Shown: positions 3,429 through 52,975 of the stretch, in pieces
Numbering within the stretch: the stretch's first letter is position 1
Layout of the letters: each line of letters begins with the position of its first letter
DNA from: a virus
Lineage: Duplodnaviria; Heunggongvirae; Uroviricota; Caudoviricetes
Reading direction: 5' to 3' (one strand)
Virus record (IMG/VR): IMGVR_UViG_3300028031_000001
Span: 1 to 64,000 of that record
Length of the DNA: 64,000 nt
Translations under genes and position numbers: made by a program
Notes under the pieces: generated by a model
Database searches by the model: none
Seen by the model: only the letters and a program-made list of their open reading frames with translations
Told to the model about the DNA's origin: nothing

Positions 3429-5353
3429 AAATAACCTCTGTACAAATAAAGAATTTTCTATCTATAGGTAGTATAGAATGCTCTCTAGAAGACAAGGGAT
3501 TGGTGTTAATACAAGGCGAAAATCTTGATGATACATCTCAAGATAGCAACGGCTCTGGAAAGTCTAGCTTGCCCGACGCAATAAGTTGGTGCCTATATGG
3601 TGTAACCGCTCGTGGTCAAACCGGTGATGCGGTTATTAATAAAAAATCTGGTAAGAATTGTTACGTATCCGTAATTCTAACGGATGAAGATCAAACTTGG
3701 ATAGTTATTAGAAATAGAAAAAACGGTGTGGAAAAAAACCGCTTAAAGCTTACCGGTTATGGTAAGGGTGGGATAATGCAAGACCTCGCTAAAGGAACTG
3801 ATAAATTAACGCAGGTTGTGCTAAATGAAATTTTAGGATGTTCTCAAGAAGTATTTATGGCTGCGGTATATGCAGGACAAGAGCATATGCCCGATTTACC
3901 ATCTATGACGGATAAAGCCTTAAAGGTTCTTGTAGAAGAAGCGGCTGGAATAGACGTCTTACAACGAGCGTTTGAAGTGGCTAAAGTTAACCTAAATACA
4001 GCTAAGACGCGCATAGATAGTATAAAGGCGGTGGTTGACTCGGCCAGACAGAGGTGTGTAACCATAGACGCGGATGTAAATTTTCAAGACAAGCAATCTG
4101 CTATCTGGATAAAGAGTAACGAAACAACCATCTGTGATTTAAAAATAAAAGCCAAATCAACTTCCACAACACTACAGGAATCAGTTGTTGGTGATAAAAG
4201 TTTACTTGAAGATCGATTATTATTAGTTAGAAAAATAATATTTGATTCTCCTAACGTTGAAAATAAAAGAGAGGAGCTTCAAAGTCATGTCGCTAAAGCA
4301 CATAGAGTGTTAGATGTACAAAATAACGAATTAAGAAATGCAAAAAAAACGCATCAAGTTTGCGCAAAAAACTTAACAAATGTAAAGGCAGCAATGGATG
4401 GGAATTGCGAAACGTGTGGTAGAAAACATGACGAAGTTAGCAGAGCAGCGTCTATAAAGGTTAGTAAAGCTACGTGGCAAGTCTCGGAAGATGCTATTAT
4501 TAAGTTAGAAGCTTTTATAATTGGCGCTAATAATGAAGTAGATAAACGCGTAAAAGCGCTTAATGTTTTTCAAAAGAATGTACCAGATTTGAGTGCGGAA
4601 TTAAACGAAAAAGGTTGTATAGTTGCTGAAATTCAAAAAATAGAAATGGCGCAAAATAGAAAAGACCTACTAACCAAATTTTTACAAGATCAGATCGATC
4701 ACATAAAAAAAGTTAAGAACGAAATAAATCCTCACCTCTCAGCTAAAGAGCGATCTTTACAACAAAGAGTCGAGCAGGAGGAGATCATCGATCTTTCTGG
4801 AATAGATATGCATGAAGCTGAAGAACAAATTCGGATATCTGAGGGTGTACATAAGATGTTTGGGCAATCTGGCGTCAGGGCTCATATATTAGATACAGTT
4901 ACGCCATTCTTAAATTCTCAAACAAATACTTATTTAACAGCGCTTACTGACGAAAATATATCTGCGGTATGGAGTACATTAACTAAGAAGGCAGATGGTA
5001 GCTTAAAAGAGAGTTTTAACATCTCAGTTACTTCAAAAACTGGCGCTGAATCGTTCAGAGGGCTTTCTGGGGGCGAAAAACGAAAAGTTAGGCTAGCATG
5101 TAGCATGGCCCTACAAGACCTCGTGAGTAGCCGCGCAACTAAGCCTATACAGCTATATATAGCTGATGAAATCGACGACGCACTAGATGAACAAGGTTTG
5201 GAAAGGCTAATGGGAATTCTGGATAAAAAAGCGAAGGATAAGGGCACAGTCTTGGTTATTTCACATAATTCACTATCCGATTGGATCAGGCAGGTAGTAA
5301 CGATACAAAAGAGAGACGGTCTATCATCTATGGTCGGAAATTCGTTAAAATAA
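3425..5353 (+). CDS. Rad50/SbcC-like ATPase (gp46-like)
   Basis: N-terminal Walker A QGENLDDTSQDSNGSGKSS. Long coiled-coil middle with a CxxC zinc hook (CETCGRK). C-terminal ABC signature LSGGEKRKV and Walker B LYIADEID. Confidence 0.85.
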   Translation: MKITSVQIKNFLSIGSIECSLEDKGLVLIQGENLDDTSQDSNGSGKSSLPDAISWCLYGVTARGQTGDAVINKKSGKNCYVSVILTDEDQTWIVIRNRKNGVEKNRLKLTGYGKGGIMQDLAKGTDKLTQVVLNEILGCSQEVFMAAVYAGQEHMPDLPSMTDKALKVLVEEAAGIDVLQRAFEVAKVNLNTAKTRIDSIKAVVDSARQRCVTIDADVNFQDKQSAIWIKSNETTICDLKIKAKSTSTTLQESVVGDKSLLEDRLLLVRKIIFDSPNVENKREELQSHVAKAHRVLDVQNNELRNAKKTHQVCAKNLTNVKAAMDGNCETCGRKHDEVSRAASIKVSKATWQVSEDAIIKLEAFIIGANNEVDKRVKALNVFQKNVPDLSAELNEKGCIVAEIQKIEMAQNRKDLLTKFLQDQIDHIKKVKNEINPHLSAKERSLQQRVEQEEIIDLSGIDMHEAEEQIRISEGVHKMFGQSGVRAHILDTVTPFLNSQTNTYLTALTDENISAVWSTLTKKADGSLKESFNISVTSKTGAESFRGLSGGEKRKVRLACSMALQDLVSSRATKPIQLYIADEIDDALDEQGLERLMGILDKKAKDKGTVLVISHNSLSDWIRQVVTIQKRDGLSSMVGNSLK

Positions 5354-38567: not shown

Positions 38568-38879
38568 TTATATGTCATACCCTCTTAAATCGGAAGTAAA
38601 GTAGTTACTAGCTATTGTACGCAACTCATAACTAACTTCATGAGGTTTAAGTTCAACTATCTCGCCTAGCAAATTTATAAAAACTATATGTTGGTTTGCT
38701 TTATCTATCCAATAACATTGTTGTTTTTGTTTTGGCTTGCTGTAGCCATTATACACTGGAGTGCCTGATTTTGTACGCCTAAGATACTTGTGTTTATATT
38801 CGTCTTCAGACAAATTATTCAAAATATCCTTAAGGGTCTTTCGATCTTTGTATTCCTTAAGCCACATTCGTTTTTTCAC
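38568..38879 (-). CDS. Hypothetical protein
   Basis: 103-aa ORF coupled to the downstream NAMPT-like gene. Confidence 0.4.
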   Translation of the reverse strand: MKKRMWLKEYKDRKTLKDILNNLSEDEYKHKYLRRTKSGTPVYNGYSKPKQKQQCYWIDKANQHIVFINLLGEIVELKPHEVSYELRTIASNYFTSDLRGYDI

Positions 38880-40327
38880 GACCCATTTAGACGTTCTCTG
38901 ATTTCGGACAGCGTGGTTATATTTTTTATTTCACTATCTAGGAAAACAGTCTGTAAAAGACCCCCCTGTTCTTCTTCCGAGGTACATTGATCTTTGATAG
39001 ACCCGTCATGCTCGACGCGAAGCAAACCCTTTGCGGATCGCTTAAGTCCATTGTCGGTCTTTGGGTCTTTGAAGATTTCGCGATGCTCACCATCAACAAT
39101 ACCATAAGTCGCTTTGACCGCAAATCCGTGCGTGTCCCGAGTCACCATTTGGTACGTAAAGCTGCCTACTCCAAATACAATATTGCTAGATGCAAAACCA
39201 GCGGCTTCTAAATTACTTAAAATCTCATCAGCACGGTCGTAAGTGATGCTGTCTCCATATATCAAACCGATATGTGGATTAAGAACTTTGTAACCCTGTT
39301 CATTGTCAGTTCCACCAAATGTATCCCAAAGACATTGAATAGTTCCCTGAGCAATAGCGGAATCATCCGATTCGTAGTCGCCACAAATTATTTTAACCGG
39401 GTCTCCCGAGTCTGGCCGAATTACCACCTTTCCATCACGAGCTAATATTTTATCCTTAAGTTGCGGTAAGAATTCTGTAATAACTTTCCAGTAGTCCCAT
39501 GAGTCAGATACGATAGATACAATCCCTTTGGGATATACATCCTCTATCAATTCTCTAAAGGTTTCAATCTCGTTATCTTTTCCTCTTAGACACATAACGG
39601 AATGCTCTGTAGCGGGAACTGACATACCTATGATTTCGCTATCGCTGTCGGCTCCGTAGTAATTCTCTAGGAAATCAATTGCGGGAATGGTATCCGTACC
39701 TAAGAAACTTAACAAATGCCCGGCACCGCTCATAGACGCGGCCTCAACACCCGGTAAACCCCTCATAGAGAAGTCGTGTGCCTGAAAGTCTACACCGTCG
39801 GTTGTTCCGGTTGTTTGTATTGCATATTTATCAAGTAGTTGGCGATATTTATCCGCAGTACTTGCGGAAGTCATGGGTAACCACAAACTTGTTGATAATA
39901 AAGTCTCTAAGTAATTAACCAACCAAGAAAAGTCCGCGTGGGTGTTGGTTATAGTAAGCATTGGAACTCTATGGTCGCATCGAGTGCCTTCCGGAAGAGC
40001 TTTGATTAGTAGGGGAAGATATCCCAAATCCCACAAAGCCGCGACATGGCTGACGCCTACAGAGTCTTCACCAAGTGCGTTATCAAGGCGGCGTTTGTAT
40101 CGGCTAACAACTTTAGCTTTATTAACGCTAAAAAAATCTTCGTCAAACTGTTTCATTAAGTATTCTAAAATAAAATACTGAATGCCAAATACGACCGTGT
40201 AATCCATTCCGGAATAAGGCCCGCCGCGAGGCGTTAAATTTGAATAAATTTTAGTTGTCTTAGCCGGATACTGCTGAATATGTCCAACCTTATAAAAATC
40301 GGTTAAATGTATAGGGTGTAATTTCAT
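38876..40327 (-). CDS. Nicotinamide phosphoribosyltransferase-like protein (NadV/NAMPT family; an alternative reading is Namat of NARP1)
   Basis: 483 aa. NAMPT-family features run across the whole length (the Tyr-rich N-terminus FYKVGH, GTDT, SDSWDYW, GVGSF). Confidence 0.75.
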   Translation of the reverse strand: MKLHPIHLTDFYKVGHIQQYPAKTTKIYSNLTPRGGPYSGMDYTVVFGIQYFILEYLMKQFDEDFFSVNKAKVVSRYKRRLDNALGEDSVGVSHVAALWDLGYLPLLIKALPEGTRCDHRVPMLTITNTHADFSWLVNYLETLLSTSLWLPMTSASTADKYRQLLDKYAIQTTGTTDGVDFQAHDFSMRGLPGVEAASMSGAGHLLSFLGTDTIPAIDFLENYYGADSDSEIIGMSVPATEHSVMCLRGKDNEIETFRELIEDVYPKGIVSIVSDSWDYWKVITEFLPQLKDKILARDGKVVIRPDSGDPVKIICGDYESDDSAIAQGTIQCLWDTFGGTDNEQGYKVLNPHIGLIYGDSITYDRADEILSNLEAAGFASSNIVFGVGSFTYQMVTRDTHGFAVKATYGIVDGEHREIFKDPKTDNGLKRSAKGLLRVEHDGSIKDQCTSEEEQGGLLQTVFLDSEIKNITTLSEIRERLNGS

Positions 40328-41085
40328 AATACTCTTCCTTTTGGTGTGTAAATTTCGTCTATCAATCCATCAAAAACTTTAAAACCTTTTGTGAAAAAAC
40401 CATGCGATACACAAAGTATTATTTTTTTCGCACCATGCTTGCGCAACTTCTTTGCTATCTCTATGAAGGTTCTTCCTCCATCACAGATATCATCCACTAT
40501 AACGCAGGTTTTGTCAAGAACTTTTTCATAATCATGTACTATGGTTTTTAAAATTTTGCCCGTTGCCAACTGCCTAACTTTGGAGCAGTGGACTAGCCCG
40601 CCAATATTTTCAGAATGTACTTCTGCAAGTTTCTCCGACTTGTGAATGGCTCCAGCGTCTGGAGCAACAATAATCCACCCCTTTTCTAGACACGATAATG
40701 CTCCGAAAAAATTTGCGAACTGCGGAATTGATATGCAGTTATTAATTAATGCTGAAGTAACTGGCGAATGGGGGTCGAGAATTTGTACCCTTGAAAATTC
40801 GAGATTATTTACCAGATCAGTAAAAACTTTGATGGACAAAGACTCGCCCTTAGTCATTACGCGGTCTTGCCTACTAAAGGGCACATAATGCATTATCAAC
40901 AAACCAAGACTCAAATTGCAGCGTTTGATGGCGTCACAAACCAATAGAAGGTCTATAATACTGTCAGAACCATCGAACTCAAATCTAACATTAATAATTT
41001 CGCTCGTAATATTACTAACTTTTACATTCCTCTCTCCACATGGAAAGGAAAAAAATCTTACGTCCGCACCTGTTAATCTTATCAT
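40324..41085 (-). CDS. Ribose-phosphate pyrophosphokinase-like protein (Prs family; an alternative reading is ADP-ribose pyrophosphate synthetase Adps of NARP1)
   Basis: PRPP-binding motif VIVDDICDGGRTF. At 253 aa it is shorter than canonical Prs of about 315 aa. The gene is translationally coupled to the NAMPT-like gene. Confidence 0.65.
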   Translation of the reverse strand: MIRLTGADVRFFSFPCGERNVKVSNITSEIINVRFEFDGSDSIIDLLLVCDAIKRCNLSLGLLIMHYVPFSRQDRVMTKGESLSIKVFTDLVNNLEFSRVQILDPHSPVTSALINNCISIPQFANFFGALSCLEKGWIIVAPDAGAIHKSEKLAEVHSENIGGLVHCSKVRQLATGKILKTIVHDYEKVLDKTCVIVDDICDGGRTFIEIAKKLRKHGAKKIILCVSHGFFTKGFKVFDGLIDEIYTPKGRVL

Positions 41086-46953: not shown

Positions 46954-47250
46954 CTATTTGTTGTCAAGAGCCTTGTATTTCATGTTAATTCTGTAGATCG
47001 CCTGTGATTTGCACCAATCCATCCACGGTGCTCTACAATCCCCTTGGATGTGTATACCATTCTTCTGAAAAATACAACCGCCCGGACATTTTTGCCTTGC
47101 TATCTTTTGAAGTTCCATATCTTTAAATTTATCATCGTAACCTTGGAACATATTATTTCTCCAAACTGTGTTATATAACGAACAACTAATTGCCCAATTG
47201 TTCATTATATAAGACAATTGGCAGGCCCGCCTCGAATCGAACGAGGTCAT
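46954..47250 (-). CDS. Cys-rich hypothetical protein
   Basis: 98-aa ORF (CPGGCIFQKNGIHIQGDC). Confidence 0.4.
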   Translation of the reverse strand: MTSFDSRRACQLSYIMNNWAISCSLYNTVWRNNMFQGYDDKFKDMELQKIARQKCPGGCIFQKNGIHIQGDCRAPWMDWCKSQAIYRINMKYKALDNK

Positions 47251-47293
47251 GGAAGATTCAAAATCTCCTGTGTTCCCACTTCACCACGAACCT
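47219..47293 (-). tRNA. tRNA-Gln(TTG)
   Basis: T-arm CCTCG-TTCGATT-CGAGG, anticodon loop TTTTGAA, acceptor AGGTTCG/CGGGCCT and encoded CCA. Confidence 0.6.
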
Positions 47294-47299
47294 ATTGAT

Positions 47300-47386
47300 T
47301 GGAGGAGAGAGTCAGAATTGAACTGAAAACTGTGAAATTCGCACTGGTTAGCAACCGTACCCTATAACCATATAGGATCACTCTCC
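47300..47386 (-). tRNA. tRNA-like gene, possibly type II, anticodon undetermined
   Basis: T-loop TTCAATT, acceptor GGAGAGT/TCTCTCC and a D-arm, but no clean anticodon stem. Confidence 0.3.
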
Positions 47387-47395
47387 AAAATTAGT

Positions 47396-47470
47396 TGGTG
47401 GGTCTACCGAGCAACGATCTCGGACAGTCTGATTAAAAGTCAGATATGCTGCCAATTACATCATAGACCC
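47396..47470 (-). tRNA. tRNA-Lys(TTT)
   Basis: Full cloverleaf: acceptor GGGTCTA/TAGACCC, anticodon stem TCTGA/TCAGA with loop CTTTTAA, encoded CCA. Confidence 0.7.
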
Positions 47471-47712
47471 AAAGTTTGATTGCAACTTTGCTGGTCTGGC
47501 TTAATGATGCGGATCAATTCTCTTGACCCTGTTGTTCCTGTATTCATTTTAGTTCCTTAGTAGTGAGGGTTTTGACCATCACGTAATCTTTTATCTGCCG
47601 CAGCTTCAAAGCCTTGTTCGAAGATTCGTCCTATTTTTTTGATAGACGTTTCAATAAGAATCAATAATTTTAGAGTTTCTGCTGTTGTCATTTTCATTTC
47701 AATTCCTTAATT

Positions 47713-47788
47713 TGGTAGGCCCGGAGAGACTCGAACTCTCATAAATCTGGTTAGAAGCCAGATGCCTGTCCAGTTAGACTACGAGCCT
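47713..47788 (-). tRNA. tRNA-Arg(TCT)
   Basis: Full cloverleaf: T-arm GAGAG-TTCGAGT-CTCTC, anticodon loop CTTCTAA, encoded CCA. Confidence 0.7.
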
Positions 47789-48008
47789 ATAAATCTTCAA
47801 CCTCTTCTAAAGGTTGAAATGTTCCATGTTTAGGGTCTGAATCATAATGGTATTCTAAATCTTCAAAAACTTCCCCAAACTTGCTTCGATCACCCAAAAA
47901 ACCCTCTCCATTCCAGGAACCATAGTTGAAATTTCTTCCGATTCCACGGTACAATTGTCCGAATTTCATATCTTCTAGTTTTAAATAATTATCTTTTAAG
48001 TAATTCAT
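47787..48008 (-). CDS. Hypothetical small protein within the tRNA array
   Basis: 73-aa ORF between tRNA genes. Confidence 0.35.
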   Translation of the reverse strand: MNYLKDNYLKLEDMKFGQLYRGIGRNFNYGSWNGEGFLGDRSKFGEVFEDLEYHYDSDPKHGTFQPLEEVEDL

Positions 48009-48025
48009 AATAATATTCTCGTTAT

Positions 48026-48097
48026 TGGCTCACCCACTTGGAGTCGAACCAAGAAAAATTTCCTTCGTAGGGAAATGGCATTCCTATCGCTGGGTGA
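48026..48097 (-). tRNA. tRNA-Arg(ACG)
   Basis: T-arm CTTGG-TTCGACT-CCAAG, anticodon stem TTTCC/GGAAA with loop CTACGAA, encoded CCA. Confidence 0.65.
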
Positions 48098-48103
48098 ATT
48101 GTT

Positions 48104-48179
48104 TGGTACGGGTAGAAGGTTATGCTCCTCCGGTAAGCGCTTATAAGACGCCCGTTTTCACTAATTAAACTATACCCGC
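48104..48179 (-). tRNA. tRNA-Ile(TAT)-like gene with a non-canonical T-loop AGCATAA
   Basis: Acceptor GCGGGTA/TACCCGT, D-stem GTTT/AAAC, anticodon loop CTTATAA, encoded CCA. The T-loop lacks a TTC. Confidence 0.35.
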
Positions 48180-48542
48180 ACAATGCGGGTTATCTCTGTG
48201 TCCATCACTTAATCTCCTGATTGGGCCAGTGCTCGTTAAACAATCTTGATGGTTGGCTCGTGCCAATCCATTTCTTATAAATCAGCTTGTCGCCGAAATA
48301 AACGAAAAGATTGTTATCTATTTTGACTGAGCGCATACAATCTCCTAATAAGTCGGGGCGGAAGAATCGAACTTCCTTGCGCACTGCGACTGGCTGCTCC
48401 AGCAAACCCCCATTGTTTGGTGCGGGGCTGAGTAGTTGCACCTCAGATTTCTAATACTCTGTCACAGGTTATGATCCTATTTGGAGACGCAAAAGTTATC
48501 ACGCTGTACAAACGCTTCCGTCTTGCTTACACCCGCGTTACT

Positions 48543-48617
48543 TGGTAGACCTACGAGGTTATGCTCCCCGGTTGCTCGCGTATCAGACGAGTGCCTTCAC
48601 TATTAGACGATAGGTCA
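48543..48617 (-). tRNA. tRNA-Ile(GAT)-like gene with the same unusual T-loop AGCATAA
   Basis: Anticodon stem CTCGT/GCGAG with loop CTGATAC, T-stem CGGGG/CCTCG and a CCA-like 3' end. Confidence 0.4.
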
Positions 48618-48691
48618 ATAAAATATTCTATCATTTAAGACATCTTAGAAGCGTTAAAGTTTCGTAATATATCACAAATGACACCTAAATT

Positions 48692-48761
48692 TGGGGTGAC
48701 GTAGAGAATCGAACTCTTTAGTTCCGGATCACAACCGGGCCTTCTCCCTGAGAAACGCCAC
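48692..48761 (-). tRNA. tRNA-His(GTG)
   Basis: Acceptor GTGGCGT/ACGTCAC with a C discriminator. Anticodon loop TTGTGAT. T-loop TTCGATT. Encoded CCA. Confidence 0.5.
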
Positions 48762-48999
48762 ATCTTTAAACTTAATACATACTTAAGTCGTCTTTAAGGG
48801 TCTAATATGGCCTTAAAGCAACATTATAAAATTGAACCATATTGGTTTGAAATAAGCAAATTCAACCGTATTGGTTTATTTCGTGATATTCAACTAATAT
48901 GGTTGAATTGGTCAAGGCGGCGTGTTCTGCCCACGCTCCTCCGAGTTCCAAACCCGGCAGCTTATCTGAACTTGCCCTCGCCAAGAAGGTTTTAAAATT

Positions 49000-49085
49000 T
49001 GGTACTCCGAGAAAGATTTGAACTTTCAATCCCTTACGGGCGCTGGTTTCTAAAACCAGAGTGTATACCGTTCCACCACCGGAGC
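49000..49085 (-). tRNA. tRNA-Leu(TAG), type II
   Basis: T-arm GAAAG-TTCAAAT-CTTTC, anticodon stem CTGGT/ACCAG with loop TTTAGAA, long variable arm, encoded CCA. Confidence 0.7.
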
Positions 49086-49143
49086 ATTGTTCTTAGACTT
49101 GACACTTCGACTCTAATTGTCTCATGTGAGAGGTCTGTAAAAT

Positions 49144-49229
49144 TGGTACATCCGGAGAGACTCGAACTCTCAATCCATCTCAGGCGTTGGATTTTAAGTC
49201 CAATGTGTATCCCATTCCACCACAGATGC
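49144..49229 (-). tRNA. tRNA-Leu(TAA), type II
   Basis: T-arm GAGAG-TTCGAGT-CTCTC, anticodon stem TTGGA/TCCAA with loop CTTAAAA, long variable arm, encoded CCA. Confidence 0.7.
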
Positions 49230-49317
49230 ATAAATAATGCAGAACGTCATTACCGGCATCAGCCTCGACCTTAAAGGTTACGTGACCTCATATCCAAAGA
49301 TATGTCTGTTGGGTCAA

Positions 49318-49396
49318 TTTGGTCGCCAAGGTGGGAGTCGAACCCACGTCTGTTCTGCTTATGAGGCAGAGCTGGTGCCACTCCAGTCACTCGGCA
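49318..49396 (-). tRNA. tRNA-Met/Ile2(CAT)
   Basis: T-arm GTGGG-TTCGACT-CCCAC, anticodon stem TCTGC/GCAGA with loop CTCATAA, encoded CCA. The 5' boundary is uncertain by about 1 nt. Confidence 0.55.
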
Positions 49397-49467
49397 TTAA
49401 TTTTTACTTAAAACTTTCATTATCCGCAAGTTTTGCGGAAAATACGGCTATTAATCTCCGCAATTTT

Positions 49468-49553
49468 TGGTGTGCGTGGTAAGGAATCAAACCTACCAAG
49501 CCCAGAGGCGACGGGGTTACAATCCGCCAGCTTTCTCAGTTGCATACACGCAC
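49468..49553 (-). tRNA. Putative tRNA-Tyr(GTA), type II
   Basis: Perfect acceptor GTGCGTG/CACGCAC, loop TTGTAAC in an imperfect stem, long variable arm, encoded CCA. The T-arm is non-canonical. Confidence 0.4.
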
Positions 49554-49567
49554 ATTGTCAAAAAAAA

Positions 49568-49641
49568 TGGTATTCCCTGCGGGTACTGACCCCGCGCCGT
49601 CTGGTTGAAAGCCAGATATTCTACCATTAAACTAAGGGAAT
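49568..49641 (-). tRNA. tRNA-Glu(TTC)
   Basis: Perfect acceptor ATTCCCT/AGGGAAT, anticodon stem TCTGG/CCAGA with loop CTTTCAA, T-stem GCGGG/CCCGC, encoded CCA. Confidence 0.6.
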
Positions 49642-49676
49642 AATTCCCTAAGCCTCTTGTCCTGCGTATGTATACA

Positions 49677-50084
49677 TTATTTTCTCCCAAATTCTCTTCT
49701 ATTTCTCGAAACTCTTCGAGCGTTTGCAGATTTACAAAGTTCACAACTACACTGGTAGCTTCTAGACTTATATCTGCGCATTGTTCCATGTTCTGGAACT
49801 CCAAATTCATTCTTATAATCTTGTTTTGTTTTTTTTATGTGACACGGTTTACACCTTATGGTACATTTTTCCAATTCTTTATTTCGTCTAGGAATTGCCC
49901 AAGACCATATTCTGTGTGACACTTTATCTTTTGGGTCTTTATGGTCAATTTCTAAAGATAGCATCGATCCGCAATCTGTACAACCATCTTGTCCGTTTTC
50001 TTCAAACCAATCGCTTCTTCTTTTTGCGATCCATTCTCTAGCATATTTTCTTCTCGCTTCCAAATTTTTTATTGGCATAATCAT
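49677..50084 (-). CDS. HNH endonuclease embedded in the tRNA array
   Basis: HNH motif (LEIDHKDPKDK...H) plus zinc ligands (CTDCGS ... CKPCH ... CSCELC). Confidence 0.7.
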   Translation of the reverse strand: MIMPIKNLEARRKYAREWIAKRRSDWFEENGQDGCTDCGSMLSLEIDHKDPKDKVSHRIWSWAIPRRNKELEKCTIRCKPCHIKKTKQDYKNEFGVPEHGTMRRYKSRSYQCSCELCKSANARRVSRNRREFGRK

Positions 50085-50141
50085 AATCCTATTATTTAGG
50101 GTTCAATTATACATAAAAGCACAATTATGTCAACATAAATT

Positions 50142-50216
50142 TGGAGCCCTTACGACGATTTGAACGCCGGTCTTCTGATTACAAAACAGTGGCTCTACCA
50201 ATTGAGCTATAAAGGC
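50142..50216 (-). tRNA. tRNA-Thr(TGT)-like gene
   Basis: Canonical D-arm TAGCTCAATTGGTAGAGC, T-arm CGGCG-TTCAAAT-CGTCG and encoded CCA. The anticodon stem has A:A and T:T mismatches around loop TTTGTAA, or a 9-nt loop. Confidence 0.45.
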
Positions 50217-50319
50217 ATATCTTAAATTTGGTCGTGAGACTTTCACTCACTCTCGCTTTCCAGTACGCGCATATAGGTAGCGTCTTCGCGTTTCAGATTC
50301 TGATGAGAATCTAAAGCTT

Positions 50320-50391
50320 TGGTGGATCGACAGAGTAACGATCTCTGCCTTCCGCATTGCAAGTGCAGAGTCTGTCCCATACAGCCAACCC
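50320..50391 (-). tRNA. tRNA-Ala(TGC)
   Basis: T-stem CAGAG/CTCTG, anticodon stem CTGCA/TGCGG with loop CTTGCAA, encoded CCA. Confidence 0.55.
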
Positions 50392-50533
50392 AATAACCTA
50401 ATTATTGCACAACACAATAACCTAAAATTTGTACGATCATAAGTTTACTGACATTAACCGTGCTTGGTCTGGCAAAGGGATTTTGCGGTTCCCAATGGTT
50501 TCCGGCGCACTCGAAAGTACGACTCCTAGTATT

Positions 50534-50610
50534 TGGACAGTAGAGTCGGAATTGAACCGACGTAAAGCGAGTTTGCAATCCGCTGCCTAAGCCATTCGAG
50601 CCATCTACTG
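50534..50610 (-). tRNA. tRNA-Cys(GCA)
   Basis: Perfect acceptor CAGTAGA/TCTACTG, T-arm GTCGG-TTCAATT-CCGAC, anticodon loop TTGCAAA, encoded CCA. Confidence 0.6.
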
Positions 50611-50611
50611 T

Positions 50612-50686
50612 TGGCGCACTAAGATGGGATCGAACCACCGACGCGTGAGGCTTCAACCCACCGCTCTACCACTGAGCTACAAGTGC
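50612..50686 (-). tRNA. tRNA-Phe(GAA)
   Basis: D-arm TAGCTCAGTGGTAGAGC, anticodon stem GTGGG/CTCAC with loop TTGAAGC, T-loop TTCGATC, encoded CCA. Confidence 0.65.
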
Positions 50687-50951
50687 TTAAAATTAGTGAT
50701 CGGTCTAGGTCTCCATTTATTCCCCAACTTGGGAGACTCCACGCGACCCGAAGGTTTCTGCTTTCGCTTCATCAGGCGTAAAATGTCGGGCTAGATGTCT
50801 ACAATGTCAACCAATCTGGTAGACCAACGCTCTTTCTGCCTTTCGGCAATTCTTTAATTCTTACCCCGCCTTTAATTAAGTTGTCTTTACAACTCCCCTT
50901 TATTGGTATGCCGGGGACAGTGGATTTTGCAGGCGGTCACTGTTGCGCTCT

Positions 50952-51025
50952 TGGTGCTCGGTGTTGAAATCGAATCAACGTCTCCTACTTGTAAGGAAGG
51001 TGCTAATCCCCTCAGCTAACCGAGC
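50952..51025 (-). tRNA. tRNA-Val(TAC)
   Basis: Perfect acceptor GCTCGGT/ACCGAGC, T-arm GTTGA-TTCGATT-TCAAC, anticodon loop CTTACAA, encoded CCA. Confidence 0.6.
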
Positions 51026-51321
51026 TAATTTGTTTCCTTTTCAGATTTTTATATTCTCTATTTCTTTTGCACCACGGACAATCTCCGTGTGAACGGCAAG
51101 TTCTATCTATAGACTTGCTGCCTGTGTAAGATTTTCTATTCGTTCGTGACATAAATATCCTAATATGGTGGGACAGACGCCGCTACAGCATCACCGATTA
51201 CGTTAATTATTCATAACCTACACATTTTTCGCTTTAGTAATTACTCTAAACCGACGTGTGTCGAAGGAGATTGTCGCATGACTCTCATCCTACCGCTCTA
51301 CTTTGAGCTACATCCCATGTT

Positions 51322-51396
51322 TGGTGCGTCGTCAGAGTCTCGAACTCTGCTTTCAAGGTTGGAAACCTTGCACATCGCCTACAATGTTTACAACGC
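51322..51396 (-). tRNA. tRNA-Gly(TCC)
   Basis: Acceptor GCGTTGT/ACGACGC, anticodon stem CAAGG/CCTTG with loop TTTCCAA, T-arm CAGAG-TTCGAGA-CTCTG, encoded CCA. Confidence 0.7.
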
Positions 51397-51429
51397 AATA
51401 ATCGTTTCATTTTTTGCAACGATTTAAAT

Positions 51430-51511
51430 TGGTGGAGCTGGAGCGATTCGAACGCTCGTCCGAGAGTTTCCCAATGGGCTTTACCTCTCGTCGAAACCAA
51501 AACACAGCCCC
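51430..51511 (-). tRNA. tRNA-like gene (82 nt), anticodon undetermined
   Basis: Perfect T-arm GAGCG-TTCGAAT-CGCTC, acceptor GGGGCTG/CAGCTCC and encoded CCA. The internal arm is atypical, with a 6-bp stem enclosing 18 nt. Confidence 0.35.
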
Positions 51512-51698
51512 TTATTTAAATTGTGTCGTTGATGGGGGATCGTCCCCATGCCTCCCCTACTCTATTTCAAGGCGAACTACATTATTCCACAACAACAAAA
51601 CTTCTCTAGCACATTTGATTATATCGCTACGAGCGAAACCATCTCTGGTAGTCTGCGAACGATACCTAAGTACCCTAGTACGTATCCGCTTGTTAATT

Positions 51699-51773
51699 TG
51701 GCGATCACGGTGAGAATCGAACTCACGACACGAGGATAGACAATCCACTGCTTAACCATTCAGCTTCGCAACC
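51699..51773 (-). tRNA. tRNA-Asp(GTC)-like gene
   Basis: T-arm GTGAG-TTCGATT-CTCAC, a G:U-rich acceptor, anticodon loop TTGTCTA in a stem with one T:T mismatch, encoded CCA. Confidence 0.45.
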
Positions 51774-51851
51774 TTAATTCTTTGACCACCTTTTGTTATT
51801 GCTTCTGCATTTACCTTAGCAGACCGCTCACGGGGCCGATGTCCTAGCCAG

Positions 51852-52214
51852 TTAAATAACCCTCATAATTTCTGCACGGGCTTTTATCAATTTTGAAATA
51901 TCTTGCATCGCGCCTCTGAAACTTAAAGTTTCTCCAGACGCATGGTCTGTAACTATATTTCGCTCCGCGTGGTACGTTCTAATTCTGACACTTCCAGCTC
52001 TAAATCGTTCCGTATCTTCGTGTAAACTTTTCAATACTCTCGATTTGCATACGGCAAGGGCGTTCTTTTTGTTTGTTTCGCGAGACTTGCTTCCCGTGCC
52101 TTGCGCTTTAATACCAGTAGATAAGTGTGTTACTCTACAACAATTTTGATGCTTGTTGCGATGCTGTCCACCCTTACCCGTTCCAGAAAACCATTCGATT
52201 TTATACTCATCCAT
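51852..52214 (-). CDS. RF-1 domain peptidyl-tRNA hydrolase (ArfB/YaeJ-like ribosome-rescue factor)
   Basis: GGQ motif in context: SGTGKGGQHRNKHQN...THL..TG. The protein is short (120 aa) with a basic C-terminal tail, like ArfB. Confidence 0.65.
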   Translation of the reverse strand: MDEYKIEWFSGTGKGGQHRNKHQNCCRVTHLSTGIKAQGTGSKSRETNKKNALAVCKSRVLKSLHEDTERFRAGSVRIRTYHAERNIVTDHASGETLSFRGAMQDISKLIKARAEIMRVI

Positions 52215-52636
52215 AATGGTAGTCCCTAGCCAGTTTCTTTTGTTTGTACCACTTCAGCCATTTACCAGTATTTGATTTTGACTTTTGAAGTTTTATACTT
52301 TTGTGACGCATTTTAACCTTAAATTAGTGGTTGTATTTTTGTGTCCGTCAGATGATTACCCTTACTATATTTGGGACTCTCCGATAGTTTTGTATACAAC
52401 CGTAGGGTTTAGCTCCCTCTGTAACGGTGAACTAAGGTATTCCCGTAGCTATGTTCCGATACAACTCTTTAATGCCAGTAGGTATATTTACGCTACCCGA
52501 GGTTCTTAACATTTGCTCTGCACAACCCACTGCAACATCAAAACTTTTATATTTCCCTAGCCCGCGTCTTACCGTCTGCGAAGGCGTAGGGCATACGATA
52601 CGTAGTCTAATGACCAATGAGACGCATCTTTCTTTT

Positions 52637-52713
52637 TGGCTGGCAATCAAGGGCTTGAACCTTGCGCGGTCGGATTAACAGTCCGTCGCCCACACCCGGT
52701 GGGCCTATTGCCA
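52637..52713 (-). tRNA. tRNA-Asn(GTT)
   Basis: Perfect acceptor TGGCAAT/ATTGCCA, T-arm CAAGG-TTCAAGC-CCTTG, anticodon loop CTGTTAA, encoded CCA. Confidence 0.55.
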
Positions 52714-52975
52714 ATAATTAAATCAGCTTCTCGGTGGTTTCCTAGTGAGGCTTGTTAGAAGGGGTGGGGACTTAAATTTTTTACTATCTTCTTTTAGCCT
52801 CTCTAGCGTTGCACCGAGAGGCTGCAAAGCTAAGATCAATCGATCATATTGAGGGGGCGCTGATCTTCCAGCCACGGACTTGTCGCCGAGCCTGACCCCG
52901 TAATCTCGAAATGTTTGGTTGACCTAAAATAATTCATGCAAGTATTATGCTCCTATTTAATTCAATTGTCAAGTT

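What the first reader, a model, noticed from the sequence alone, without database searches (positions are those of the whole stretch)
51852..52214. Phage-encoded ArfB/RF-1-domain peptidyl-tRNA hydrolase inside the tRNA array
A 120-aa protein contains the GGQ catalytic motif of class I release factors in the ArfB/YaeJ context (GKGGQHRNK..THL..TG) and a basic tail. It has no codon-recognition domains. ArfB rescues ribosomes stalled on truncated or non-stop mRNAs. A phage copy placed among tRNA genes suggests a translation-maintenance strategy, for example coping with stalling caused by host shut-off or by tRNA- or mRNA-cleaving defences.
Basis: partly seen in the sequence, partly recalled or inferred. 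Interest (0 to 1): 0.6.

Follow-up and report, generated by a model that had tools for sequence, protein, structure and literature searches.

The report
Phage mini release factor among tRNAs
A phage carries, inside its tRNA gene cluster, a 120-residue cut-down copy of the bacterial release factor that keeps the peptide-releasing GGQ domain but not the stop-codon reader; it belongs to a large, conserved, virus-only family of untested function and is not an ArfB.

Summary
The ORF is real: 51852..52214 on the minus strand, 120 aa, with the GGQ motif. It scores 53.8 bits against Pfam RF-1 (cut-off 35).

It lies in a minus-strand array of 17-22 tRNA genes in a genuine phage that has terminase, portal and RNR genes.

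The ArfB reading fails. Sequence, profile and fold searches all rank RF1/RF2 first (profile 71 and 59 bits). ArfB scores 14-17 bits (E 0.05-0.5). The C-terminus aligns to RF1 domain 4 and is not a basic tail. The protein is RF1 domains 3+4 with a shortened switch loop, lacking domains 1 and 2.

The family has about 855 close proteins and 400 IMG/VR contigs. Only 4 MAG contigs match among 185,579 species genomes. Median dN/dS is about 0.08.

In 31 of 80 related loci the next tRNA begins 0-8 nt after a TAA stop.

Most likely it is a stop-codon-independent, ribosome-dependent peptidyl-tRNA hydrolase. This is inferred, not shown.

RF-1-domain genes in phage tRNA arrays were already noted in 2018.

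An 82-nt tmRNA made of the tRNA-like domain only lies 340 nt downstream. It is not a conserved partner.

The parts
51852..52214 (-). Mini release factor ORF: 120 aa plus TAA stop, an RF-1-domain protein.
   Evidence: ORF list. Pfam PF00472 at 53.8 bits against a cut-off of 35. Family of 855 proteins.
52017..52214 (-). Residues 1-66: the GGQ domain (RF domain 3) plus helix alpha7. The GGQ codons are at 52164..52172.
   Evidence: Aligned to T. maritima RF1 residues 197-262 and T. thermophilus RF1 214-279. AF2 pLDDT is 82-91 over residues 21-60. GGQHRNKHQNCC is invariant in 24 family members.
51987..52016 (-). Residues 67-76: a shortened switch-loop region. It is 7+4 residues shorter than RF1, and the RF1 'GTGxRS' segment is missing.
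   Evidence: Gaps in the phmmer alignments to RF1. pLDDT is below 50 for residues 67-76.
51855..51986 (-). Residues 77-120: remnant of RF domain 4, with three short strands (RIRTYH, NIVTDH, TLS) and C-terminal helices.
   Evidence: The profile match runs to RF1 residue 357 and RF2 residue 363. Secondary structure is E79-82, E87-90, E96-98, H99-104, H107-119. R77, R79, T80, Y81, H82, N86, V88, D90, H91, A92 and S93 are invariant.
52223..52227 (-). Shine-Dalgarno-like AGGGA, 8 nt before the ATG.
   Evidence: Read from the sequence. Inference only.
52944..52972 (-). Sigma-70-like promoter match (TTGACA-17-CATAAT, 11 of 12). It lies just after the helicase gene and upstream of tRNA-Asn. No terminator-like site occurs between it and tRNA-Gly.
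   Evidence: Consensus scan. This is a pattern match only.
52637..52713 (-). tRNA-Asn(GUU), the upstream neighbour, 422 nt before the ATG.
   Evidence: ARAGORN. Rfam 44 bits.
51702..51773 (-). tRNA-Asp(GUC), the downstream neighbour, 78 nt after the stop codon.
   Evidence: Rfam tRNA 47.8 bits. Found by ARAGORN only at a relaxed threshold.
51430..51511 (-). TLD-only mini-tmRNA. It has the acceptor stem GGGGCUG/CAGCUCC with G3:U70, the UGGUUUCGAC loop, a 6-bp P2 helix capped by a small hairpin, GGAC plus a T arm, and an encoded ACCA. It has no mRNA-like domain. It sits in the same array, and a functional link to the ORF is not shown.
   Evidence: Rfam RF00023 at 61.6 bits against a cut-off of 47, E about 1e-23. 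Fold. Own model R1 at 69.4 bits.
47219..52713 (-). The tRNA array that holds the ORF. It has 15 default ARAGORN tRNAs, 2 more from Rfam, and up to 5 in total beyond the default set at a relaxed ARAGORN threshold. An HNH endonuclease gene lies at 49677..50084.

Best explanation
The gene encodes a 'mini release factor', made of RF1-type domain 3 (GGQ) and a remnant of domain 4. Domains 1 and 2, which read the stop codon, are gone, and the switch loop that couples codon reading to GGQ docking is shortened.

Most likely it enters the A site of ribosomes (or of 50S-peptidyl-tRNA complexes) that are stalled without a readable stop codon. It would place its GGQ loop in the peptidyl-transferase centre and trigger hydrolysis of peptidyl-tRNA, which frees the ribosome and the tRNA.

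Anchoring would come from the domain-4 remnant and the overall basic surface (pI about 10), or from an unidentified partner. It would not come from an ArfB-type tail in the mRNA channel.

The gene appears to be co-transcribed with the phage tRNAs as part of a translation-maintenance module.

Shown here: homology, architecture, conservation, virus restriction and the tRNA/tmRNA neighbourhood. Inferred: catalysis, ribosome binding, the substrate, and the benefit to the phage.
For: - RF-1 domain above Pfam's cut-off.
- The GGQ motif and its flanks (GGQHRNKHQNCC) are invariant in 24 diverse members. Median dN/dS is 0.08, or 0.12 for pairs with dS<1. This fits a conserved active site rather than a decaying fragment.
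- The best sequence, profile and fold matches are ribosome-bound RF1/RF2 domains 3-4.
- No N-terminal sequence exists for domains 1 and 2; residue 1 aligns to RF1 residues 195-214.
- The family is viral: 400 IMG/VR contigs against 4 MAG contigs in 185,579 species genomes.
- 45 of 80 viral loci have a same-strand tRNA within 500 nt. In 31 of 80, the next tRNA begins 0-8 nt after the stop, with 9 different downstream tRNA types.
- Complete permuted tmRNAs lie within 6 kb in 7 of 80 loci. An acceptor-piece-like element is present in another lineage. The published rate is 2.3% of phage genomes with any tmRNA (PMC9004378).
- RF-1-domain CDS, tmRNA, Pth2 and HNH genes were independently reported inside mycobacterial and phage tRNA arrays (PMC5966550).
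Against: - No activity data exist for any member.
- From my own knowledge, not tested here: isolated GGQ domains of ArfB/ICT1 need an extra ribosome-binding element. This protein lacks both domain 2 and a basic tail, so how it is recruited and kept off translating ribosomes is unexplained.
- Helix alpha7 plus the switch loop is about 11 residues shorter than in RF1. It may therefore not span from the decoding centre to the PTC.
- The AF2 model is only moderate (pLDDT 74.6, pTM 0.48).
- No conserved protein partner is encoded nearby; the best neighbour family occurs in 18 of 78 loci.
- The tmRNA association may simply reflect that both sit in translation modules of large phages.
Confidence: 0.55

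Rival explanations
1. It is a phage ArfB/YaeJ orthologue. A GGQ domain would be tethered to a basic C-terminal tail that probes an empty mRNA channel and rescues ribosomes on truncated mRNAs.
For: It has a GGQ domain, is small (120 aa) and is basic overall, with pI 10.1. The general role, stop-independent release, is the same kind of job.
Against: - ArfB chains score 14-17 bits (E 0.05-0.5) against the family profile, versus 71 bits for RF1.
- ArfB is absent from the phmmer hits, from NCBIfam hits at E<=1 and from the Foldseek top 50.
- The C-terminal 44 residues align to RF1 domain 4 with the invariant RTYH..N.V.DHAS motif.
- The last 40 residues have net charge +1, against +13 for E. coli ArfB.
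Confidence: 0.05
2. It needs an adaptor. Either a host or phage factor of the ArfA/BrfA/ArfT type, or SmpB with the neighbouring TLD-only tmRNA, would mark the stalled ribosome. The mini-RF would then be recruited through its domain-4 sheet, whose edge is exposed because domain 2 is missing, and would perform the hydrolysis.
For: - The domain-4 remnant is conserved although its normal partner, domain 2, is absent.
- From my own knowledge: ArfA and BrfA recruit RF2 by extending the domain 2/4 beta-sheet.
- A TLD-only tmRNA lies 340 nt downstream in the same array.
- tmRNA genes recur near family members.
Against: - No neighbour family is conserved beyond 18 of 78 loci.
- The TLD-only RNA was found next to the family only in this window: 0 of 80 viral loci by regex and by covariance model.
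- Only 1 of 120 TLD-only loci has any RF-1-domain ORF in the flank.
- No SmpB-like ORF was found in the window.
Confidence: 0.2
3. It is a non-catalytic mimic or decoy. It would occupy the A site or titrate a host factor that recognises RF domain 3, such as the GGQ methyltransferase PrmC or RF3. This would alter host termination or rescue rather than hydrolyse peptidyl-tRNA.
For: The architecture lacks any obvious specificity element. The conserved surface around GGQ is also, to my knowledge, what PrmC recognises. Phages commonly make mimics of host factors.
Against: The catalytic Gln and both Gly are invariant, together with the domain-3 core. dN/dS is very low across the whole length, including domain 4. 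Nothing else specifically argues against it; the reading was not tested here.
Confidence: 0.12
4. It is a non-functional fragment of a captured host prfA gene, or a chance ORF.
For: It corresponds to the 3' third of an RF1 gene.
Against: - 855 homologues have the same length of about 124 aa.
- More than 100 clusters at 50% identity are short proteins covering the whole profile.
- dN/dS is 0.08.
- Start context and architecture are conserved across at least 9 different tRNA contexts.
- The family is virus-restricted.
Confidence: 0.02

Closest known systems
Bacterial class I release factor RF1 (PrfA), and secondarily RF2: domains 3 and 4.
   Same: It is the best match by sequence (T. maritima RF1 E 7e-11), by profile (71 bits, covering RF1 230-357) and by fold (ranks 1-46). 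It shares GGQ, the H.NK flank, R.TH..TGI, RS..N...A, helix alpha7 and the IRTY(N/H)...(R/N).VTDH domain-4 motif.
   Different: It has no domain 1 and no domain 2, so no PxT/SPF codon reader. The switch loop is about 11 residues shorter and the 'GTGxRS' segment is absent. It has the family-specific invariants HQNCC and Cys56. It scores 54.6 bits against the RF1 equivalog cut-off of 400. It cannot recognise stop codons the way RF1 does.
ArfB (YaeJ) and mitochondrial ICT1/mL62.
   Same: It is a stand-alone GGQ-domain protein of similar size. The presumed job is the same: stop-codon-independent release on stalled ribosomes.
   Different: Sequence and profile similarity is marginal (E 0.05-0.5). 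There is no linker and no basic C-terminal helix or tail. The C-terminus is an RF domain-4 remnant. ArfB is cellular and widespread in bacteria (PMC6514570), whereas this family is essentially viral.
PrfH (RF-H) of the RtcB-PrfH ribosome repair module.
   Same: It is an RF1/RF2-derived protein that has lost normal stop-codon reading and works in RNA-damage conflicts. It is a moderate profile match (40 bits) and Foldseek rank 47, with rmsd 3.1 over 72 columns.
   Different: To my knowledge, PrfH (204-231 aa in the PDB chains) keeps an N-terminal domain-2-like module that senses the damaged decoding centre, and it is encoded next to RtcB (PMC9304027 and PMC6514570). This protein has no such module, and no RtcB-like product was seen among the few neighbouring ORFs scanned here. 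It scores 38 bits against the TIGR03072 cut-off of 166.65.
RF-1-domain CDS in tRNA arrays of mycobacteria and mycobacteriophages, and other phage GGQ-only proteins (PHROG 20323/3122, 'RF-1 domain peptide chain release factor').
   Same: The genomic theme is the same: a short RF-1-domain gene inside a mobile-element tRNA array, together with an HNH endonuclease and tmRNA (PMC5966550). BFVD lists many phage GGQ-only proteins of 64-164 aa, including Acinetobacter phage 133 and Mycobacterium phage Phabba.
   Different: This family matches those PHROGs only weakly, at 38 and 25 bits. Its best PHROG hit is a full-length RF-like profile at 49 bits. No INPHARED phage record encodes a relative above 41% identity. 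Many of the isolate-phage proteins are domain 3 only (64-80 aa), whereas this family keeps domain 4.
TLD-only tmRNA of mycobacteriophage DS6A (comparison for the neighbouring RNA).
   Same: It is a tmRNA reduced to little more than the tRNA-like domain and is phage-encoded (PMC4131195).
   Different: The sequence was found here in a different, uncultivated phage of 39% GC. The same design occurs in at least 120 diverse IMG/VR contigs. I did not find this breadth described in the papers searched.

Membership tests
Pfam RF-1 domain (PF00472) | Score at or above the curated gathering cut-off. | tested here: met
   53.8 bits against 35, E 2.3e-14, profile positions 10-115 of 116.
Pfam RF-1 domain (PF00472) | Catalytic GGQ tripeptide. 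| tested here: met
   G15 G16 Q17 are present and invariant in 24 of 24 aligned relatives.
Class I release factor RF1/RF2 | Domains 1 and 2, with the PxT or SPF codon-recognition motif. | tested here: not met
   The protein starts at the position of RF1 residues 195-214. NCBIfam RF1 scores 54.6 against 400 and 52.1 against 423, and RF2 scores 43.6 against 370.
Class I release factor RF1/RF2 | Full-length switch loop between helix alpha7 and domain 4. | tested here: not met
   Gaps of 7 and 4 residues relative to RF1 occur at query residues 68-75.
ArfB/YaeJ | Sequence or profile membership. | tested here: not met
   No ArfB model appears among NCBIfam hits at E<=1. PDB ArfB chains score 14-17 bits at E 0.05-0.5, against RF1 at 8e-19. 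ArfB is absent from the Foldseek top 50.
ArfB/YaeJ | Flexible linker plus a strongly basic C-terminal helix or tail that binds the empty mRNA channel. | tested here: not met
   The C-terminal 44 residues align to RF1/RF2 domain 4. Net charge is +1 over the last 40 residues. Channel binding itself cannot be tested here.
ArfB/YaeJ | Stop-codon-independent peptidyl-tRNA hydrolysis on ribosomes stalled on truncated mRNA. | not testable with these tools
   Needs biochemistry.
PrfH (RF-H) | N-terminal domain-2-like module, with a total length of 204-231 aa in the solved chains. | tested here: not met
   The protein is 120 aa. TIGR03072 scores 38 against 166.65, and the match covers only the GGQ part (profile positions 106-177).
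PrfH (RF-H) | Encoded next to an RtcB RNA ligase. | tested here: not met
   None of the 20 window ORFs scanned around the array gave an RtcB hit, and none of the 9 neighbour-family examples scanned did either. No conserved neighbour family exists.
tmRNA (for the RNA at 51430..51511) | tRNA-like domain: acceptor stem with G3:U70, a D-loop-like GG.UUCGAC, a T arm and a 3' CCA. | tested here: met
   Rfam RF00023 at 61.6 bits against 47. The pairs were read from the sequence and the fold. T-stem and P2 covariation in 62 related sequences shows 17-44 double changes per pair and no broken T-stem pairs.
tmRNA (for the RNA at 51430..51511) | mRNA-like domain with a resume codon, a tag reading frame and pseudoknots. 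| tested here: not met
   Only 28 nt lie between the two TLD halves. 308 of 374 model positions are deleted. ARAGORN calls no tmRNA there.

The most novel reading that the evidence does not exclude
In this phage the two neighbouring genes may form a tag-free replacement for host trans-translation.

The alanine-chargeable TLD-only tmRNA, with host SmpB, would enter stalled ribosomes or titrate SmpB away from host tmRNA. Because it has no resume codon, the ribosome would be left with peptidyl-TLD and an empty, mRNA-free A site. The mini-RF would then dock its domain-4 remnant in the vacant decoding centre and release the peptide untagged. The phage would thereby avoid ssrA-tag proteolysis and RNase R recruitment.

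A related idea concerns the relatives whose TAA stop abuts the next tRNA. RNase P processing would give their mini-RF mRNA a 3' end at or within 8 nt of the stop codon. This could make synthesis sensitive to trans-translation capacity, as with ArfA.
Probability: 0.1. Interest if true: 0.85.

Novelty: new variant of a known kind. Interest (0 to 1): 0.5.

Why it matters
Stand-alone GGQ factors (ArfB, ICT1, mtRF-R, PrfH) each solve ribosome recruitment in a different way. This is a large family with a fourth architecture: domain 3 plus a domain-4 remnant, with no tail and no domain 2. It is virus-restricted and strongly conserved.

If it is active, it would show a new way of delivering GGQ to the peptidyl-transferase centre. 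It would also show that phages with tRNA arrays bring ribosome-rescue capacity as well as tRNAs. That is relevant to tRNA- and mRNA-cleaving defences, although this link is untested.

The tight tRNA-ORF-tRNA packaging gives a natural system for studying mRNAs released by tRNA processing.

The incidental TLD-only tmRNA class, present in at least 120 viral contigs, suggests that phage interference with SmpB-tmRNA may be common.

Tried and rejected
1. ArfB membership was rejected on sequence, profile, fold and tail charge.

2. A conserved GGQ plus TLD-only tmRNA pair was rejected. Regex and covariance-model searches of 80+ family loci found the TLD-only form only in the window. Only 1 of 120 TLD loci has an RF-1-domain ORF nearby.

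3. A conserved protein partner was not found. Clustering of same-strand ORFs within 4 kb gave nothing beyond 18 of 78 loci. Some lineages have a DSP-type phosphatase, an AAA_33 kinase and Metallophos genes nearby, but only in 10-14 loci.

4. The 34-aa basic ORF 52207..52311 (-), which overlaps the start codon, was considered as a split 'tail' peptide. It was rejected because relatives have a tRNA 10-25 nt upstream and no room for it.

5. No close DNA relative exists in INPHARED phages. tblastn there gives at most 41% identity.

6. The spacers 52215..52636 and 51512..51701 were tested for structure. Z-scores were -1.1 and -1.3, which is not significant. Rfam found nothing there.

7. The search for SmpB in the window found nothing. 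This was a weak test that used a remembered sequence.

8. An attempt to extend the L001 lineage flank and see the rest of its putative permuted tmRNA returned no DNA.

9. Literature searches for an experimental study of a phage GGQ-only factor found none.

Full report
**Observation**

The ORF at 51852..52214 on the minus strand is exactly as reported: 120 aa, ATG start, TAA stop. Its GGQ codons are at 52164..52172. It scores 53.8 bits (E 2.3e-14) against Pfam RF-1, above the 35-bit cut-off.

The window is a genuine phage. It encodes terminase large subunit, portal, ribonucleotide reductase and a helicase, and its GC content is 38.9%.

The ORF lies inside a minus-strand tRNA array:
- ARAGORN finds 15 tRNAs between 47219 and 52713.
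- Rfam adds tRNA-Asp(GUC) at 51702..51773 and one tRNA at 48546..48617.
- A relaxed ARAGORN run suggests His, Tyr and Ala genes as well.
- The flanking genes are tRNA-Asn, 422 nt upstream, and tRNA-Asp, 78 nt downstream.
- A sigma-70-like match (TTGACA-17-CATAAT) lies at 52972..52944 ahead of tRNA-Asn. No terminator-like sites follow. Co-transcription with the tRNAs is therefore plausible but not shown.

**What the protein is**

Every comparison ranks canonical release factors first.
- NCBIfam hits are partial matches to RF1 (54.6 bits), RF2 and PrfH. All are far below their cut-offs, and no ArfB model appears at E<=1.
- phmmer against PDB gives T. maritima RF1 at E 7e-11. The alignment spans query residues 3-96 against RF1 197-301. 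It covers the GGQ domain and also the RF1/RF2 domain-4 signature, RIRTYHAERNIVTDH against KIRTYNFPQNRVTDH. Gaps of 7 and 4 residues fall in the alpha7/switch-loop region.
- A profile of 24 family members scores RF1 at 71 bits (profile positions 3-119 against RF1 230-357), RF2 at 59, PrfH at 40 and C12orf65 at 39. ArfB chains score only 14-17 bits at E 0.05-0.5.
- An AlphaFold2 model (pLDDT 74.6, pTM 0.48) has a confident GGQ domain and helix. It has a disordered stretch at residues 67-76, then three short strands and C-terminal helices.
- Foldseek against PDB returns ribosome-bound RF1/RF2 at ranks 1-46 and PrfH at 47, with no ArfB in the top 50.
- The C-terminal 25 and 40 residues carry net charge +3 and +1. 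They are homologous to RF domain 4, so there is no ArfB-type tail.

The protein is therefore RF1 domains 3+4 with domains 1 and 2 removed and the switch loop shortened. I call it a 'mini release factor'. The ArfB assignment does not.

**The family**

- The large protein database holds 855 proteins at E<=1e-3. The best 120 are 118-165 aa and 53-66% identical.
- The alignment shows an invariant core: W8, S10, G13, GGQHRNKHQNCC (15-26), H30, G34, the RS..N..A stretch, R77, R79, TYH (80-82), N86, V88 and DHAS (90-93).
- Median pairwise dN/dS is 0.08, or 0.12 for pairs with dS<1.
- An exhaustive HMM search of 1.84 billion cluster representatives gives 1000 proteins at E<=1e-10. Nearly all of the top 150 are 100-165 aa and cover the whole profile. 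The first full-length RF (387 aa) appears at about 78 bits. Short domain-3+4 proteins thus form a broad group of their own.
- The family is viral. 400 IMG/VR contigs encode a relative. Among 185,579 species-representative bacterial and archaeal genomes, only 4 contigs do, all from MAGs.
- No cultivated-phage record in INPHARED has a close relative. There is no megablast hit, and tblastn identity is at most 41%.
- PHROGs matches are weak. The best is 49 bits to a full-length RF-like profile. The two 'RF-1 domain peptide chain release factor' PHROGs give 38 and 25 bits.
- BFVD shows that many other phages carry GGQ-only proteins of 64-164 aa.

**Genomic context of relatives**

- Of 80 IMG/VR loci, 53 have tRNAs in the flank of up to 6 kb, nearly all of them on the gene's strand. 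In 45 loci a tRNA lies within 500 nt.
- In 31 loci the next tRNA begins 0-8 nt after the stop codon. Most of these also have a tRNA ending 10-25 nt before the ATG. Often the tRNA's CCA is followed directly by AGGAG.
- Nine different downstream tRNA types occur: Arg-UCU, Arg-CCU, Met, Pro, Val, Tyr, Ser, Ala and Leu. The sandwich is therefore recurrent rather than one inherited arrangement.
- All 31 sandwiched genes end in TAA, against 25 of 47 of the others. This is not corrected for relatedness.
- No protein-coding neighbour is conserved beyond 18 of 78 loci. Some lineages carry a DSP-type phosphatase, an AAA_33 P-loop kinase and a Metallophos gene nearby. These may be RNA end-healing enzymes, but I did not test that.
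- Complete permuted tmRNA genes with tags ending in ALAA lie 0.7-4.6 kb downstream in 7 of 80 loci (L011, L022, L023, L024, L034, L042, L046).
- Another lineage (L001, L003, L017, L019-L021) has a tmRNA acceptor-piece-like element, GGACGCGGGTTCGACTCCCGCCTGGTCCACCA, at the edge of the held flank.
- For comparison, 2.3% of phage genomes carry any tmRNA (PMC9004378).

**The neighbouring RNA**

Rfam's tmRNA model matches 51430..51511 (-) at 61.6 bits against a cut-off of 47. The RNA is only 82 nt long, and 308 of 374 model positions are deleted.

It has these features:
- acceptor stem GGGGCUG/CAGCUCC with G3:U70;
- the tmRNA D-loop motif UGGUUUCGAC;
- a 6-bp P2 helix capped by UAAAG-CCC-AUU-GGG-AAA;
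- GGAC plus a T arm;
- an encoded ACCA.

It has no tag reading frame, so it is a TLD-only tmRNA. The only precedent I found is mycobacteriophage DS6A. Its describers note that such a molecule strongly inhibits tmRNA, perhaps by titrating SmpB (PMC4131195).

In 62 non-redundant copies, four of the five T-stem pairs and three P2 base pairs show double compensatory changes in 17-44 sequences, and no T-stem pair is broken; the fifth T-stem pair and one P2 pair never vary.

The RNA is not a conserved partner of the mini-RF:
- No family locus other than the window has one, either by regex or by a covariance model built from the 62 copies.
- Only 1 of 120 TLD loci (L108) has an RF-1-domain ORF in its flank.

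**Mechanism**

The shown facts are RF1-type homology, retention of the catalytic motif under strong constraint, loss of the codon reader, virus restriction, and embedding among tRNA genes, sometimes with tmRNA genes nearby.

From established knowledge of class I RFs, ArfB, ICT1 and PrfH, the GGQ loop acts only in the ribosomal peptidyl-transferase centre. The most likely activity is therefore stop-codon-independent, ribosome-dependent hydrolysis of peptidyl-tRNA on stalled complexes.

How it is recruited and restrained is unknown. It lacks ArfB's tail and PrfH's sensor domain. Its alpha7/switch region is shorter than RF1's. I put 0.55 on this mechanism.

The rivals are:
- an adaptor-dependent version, with a host or phage ArfA-like factor or SmpB-TLD (0.2);
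- a non-catalytic mimic or decoy (0.12);
- true ArfB (0.05);
- a dead fragment (0.02).

**Novelty**

RF-1-domain genes in phage and mycobacterial tRNA arrays, alongside HNH endonuclease, tmRNA and Pth2 genes, were reported in 2018 and linked speculatively to ribosome rescue (PMC5966550). Huge-phage and jumbo-phage surveys list release factors, tmRNA, SmpB and Pth2 (PMC7162821; PMC7824862). This window repeats that composition, with an HNH gene at 49677..50084.

New here are:
- the recognition that this family is a domain-3+4 mini-RF rather than ArfB;
- its size and virus restriction;
- the tRNA-ORF-tRNA sandwich;
- the TLD-only tmRNA next to it.

No experimental work on any member was found. 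I rate it a new variant of a known kind, with interest 0.5.

Noticed in passing
window 51430..51511 (-); loci L087-L206: An 82-nt TLD-only tmRNA with G3:U70, UUCGAC, a T arm and ACCA but no mRNA-like domain. Rfam scores it 61.6 bits against a cut-off of 47. Only 31 of the 120 are near tRNAs. Four T-stem and three P2 pairs covary; one pair in each helix is invariant. The only precedent I found is mycobacteriophage DS6A (PMC4131195).
   Followed up: partly
L011, L013, L015, L016, L026, L032, L036, L047, L055, L062, L066 and others: In 31 of 80 related loci the next tRNA starts 0-8 nt after the mini-RF stop codon, which is always TAA. In most of these the upstream tRNA's CCA is directly followed by AGGAG and the ATG comes 10-25 nt later. 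After tRNA processing the mRNA would have almost no 3' UTR, so an ArfA-like coupling to trans-translation is conceivable.
   Followed up: partly
L011 7735..8082; L034 8921..9234; L022, L023, L024, L042, L046; L001 12236..12270: Permuted two-piece tmRNA genes with tags ending in ALAA lie 0.7-4.6 kb downstream of the mini-RF gene in 7 of 80 loci. ARAGORN missed two of them. Another lineage has an acceptor-piece-like element at the edge of the held flank.
   Followed up: partly
window 51699..51773, 48543..48617, 48692..48761, 49468..49553, 50320..50391 (all -): Default ARAGORN missed several tRNA genes: Asp(GUC) and Ile(GAU), both confirmed by Rfam, and candidate His(GUG), Tyr(GUA) and Ala(UGC) seen only at a relaxed threshold.
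   Followed up: partly
window 49677..50084 (-): An HNH endonuclease gene (phrog_4234, E 2e-34) sits inside the tRNA array. This matches the HNH genes reported as the most widespread CDS in mycobacterial and phage tRNA arrays.
   Followed up: no
window 38876..40327 (-) and 40324..41085 (-): Adjacent, overlapping genes encode nicotinamide phosphoribosyltransferase (655 bits) and ribose-phosphate pyrophosphokinase (245 bits). This is an NAD+ salvage pair of the kind linked, to my knowledge, to countering NAD-depleting defences.
   Followed up: no
window 52222..52234 (-) and 51840..51852 (-): A near-identical 12-13-nt direct repeat, ACTGGCTAGG(G)AC, lies immediately before the SD/ATG and immediately after the stop codon, bracketing the ORF. 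Its significance is unclear. At 2 or fewer mismatches there are 6 matches in the window, against 2.3 expected.
   Followed up: partly
window 52207..52311 (-): A 34-aa lysine-rich ORF (MRHKSIKLQKSKSNTGKWLKWYKQKKLARDYHYG) overlaps the mini-RF start codon by 8 nt. It is not conserved in relatives, which have a tRNA in that position, so it is probably spurious.
   Followed up: partly
window 52215..52636 and 51512..51701: Two spacers of 422 nt and 190 nt within the array have no ORF, tRNA or Rfam match and no significant folding signal (z -1.1 and -1.3). A degenerate tRNA-like 3' half may lie near 52367..52395 (repeat family D2).
   Followed up: partly
L108 419..787 (+) and 5205..5286 (+): A second, unrelated case on a 115-kb viral contig. 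A different 123-aa GGQ-only ORF (..TAGGPGGQHQNHSNTAVRITH..) and a TLD-only tmRNA sit in the same array of 13 tRNAs.
   Followed up: no
L040 794..1254 (+): A GOLLD RNA (Rfam RF02032, 207.7 bits) lies within the tRNA array of a 138-kb viral contig that also carries the mini-RF.
   Followed up: no
L013 3356..4854; L001 6789..7922: In some lineages a DSP-type phosphatase (PF22785/PF00782), an AAA_33 P-loop kinase or a Metallophos protein flank the mini-RF and tRNA cluster. This is possibly an RNA end-healing set.
   Followed up: no
L051 9488..9572 (+): A match to the Rfam tRNA-Sec model scores just above its cut-off (48.6 against 47). It lies in a viral tRNA cluster near the mini-RF gene.
   Followed up: no
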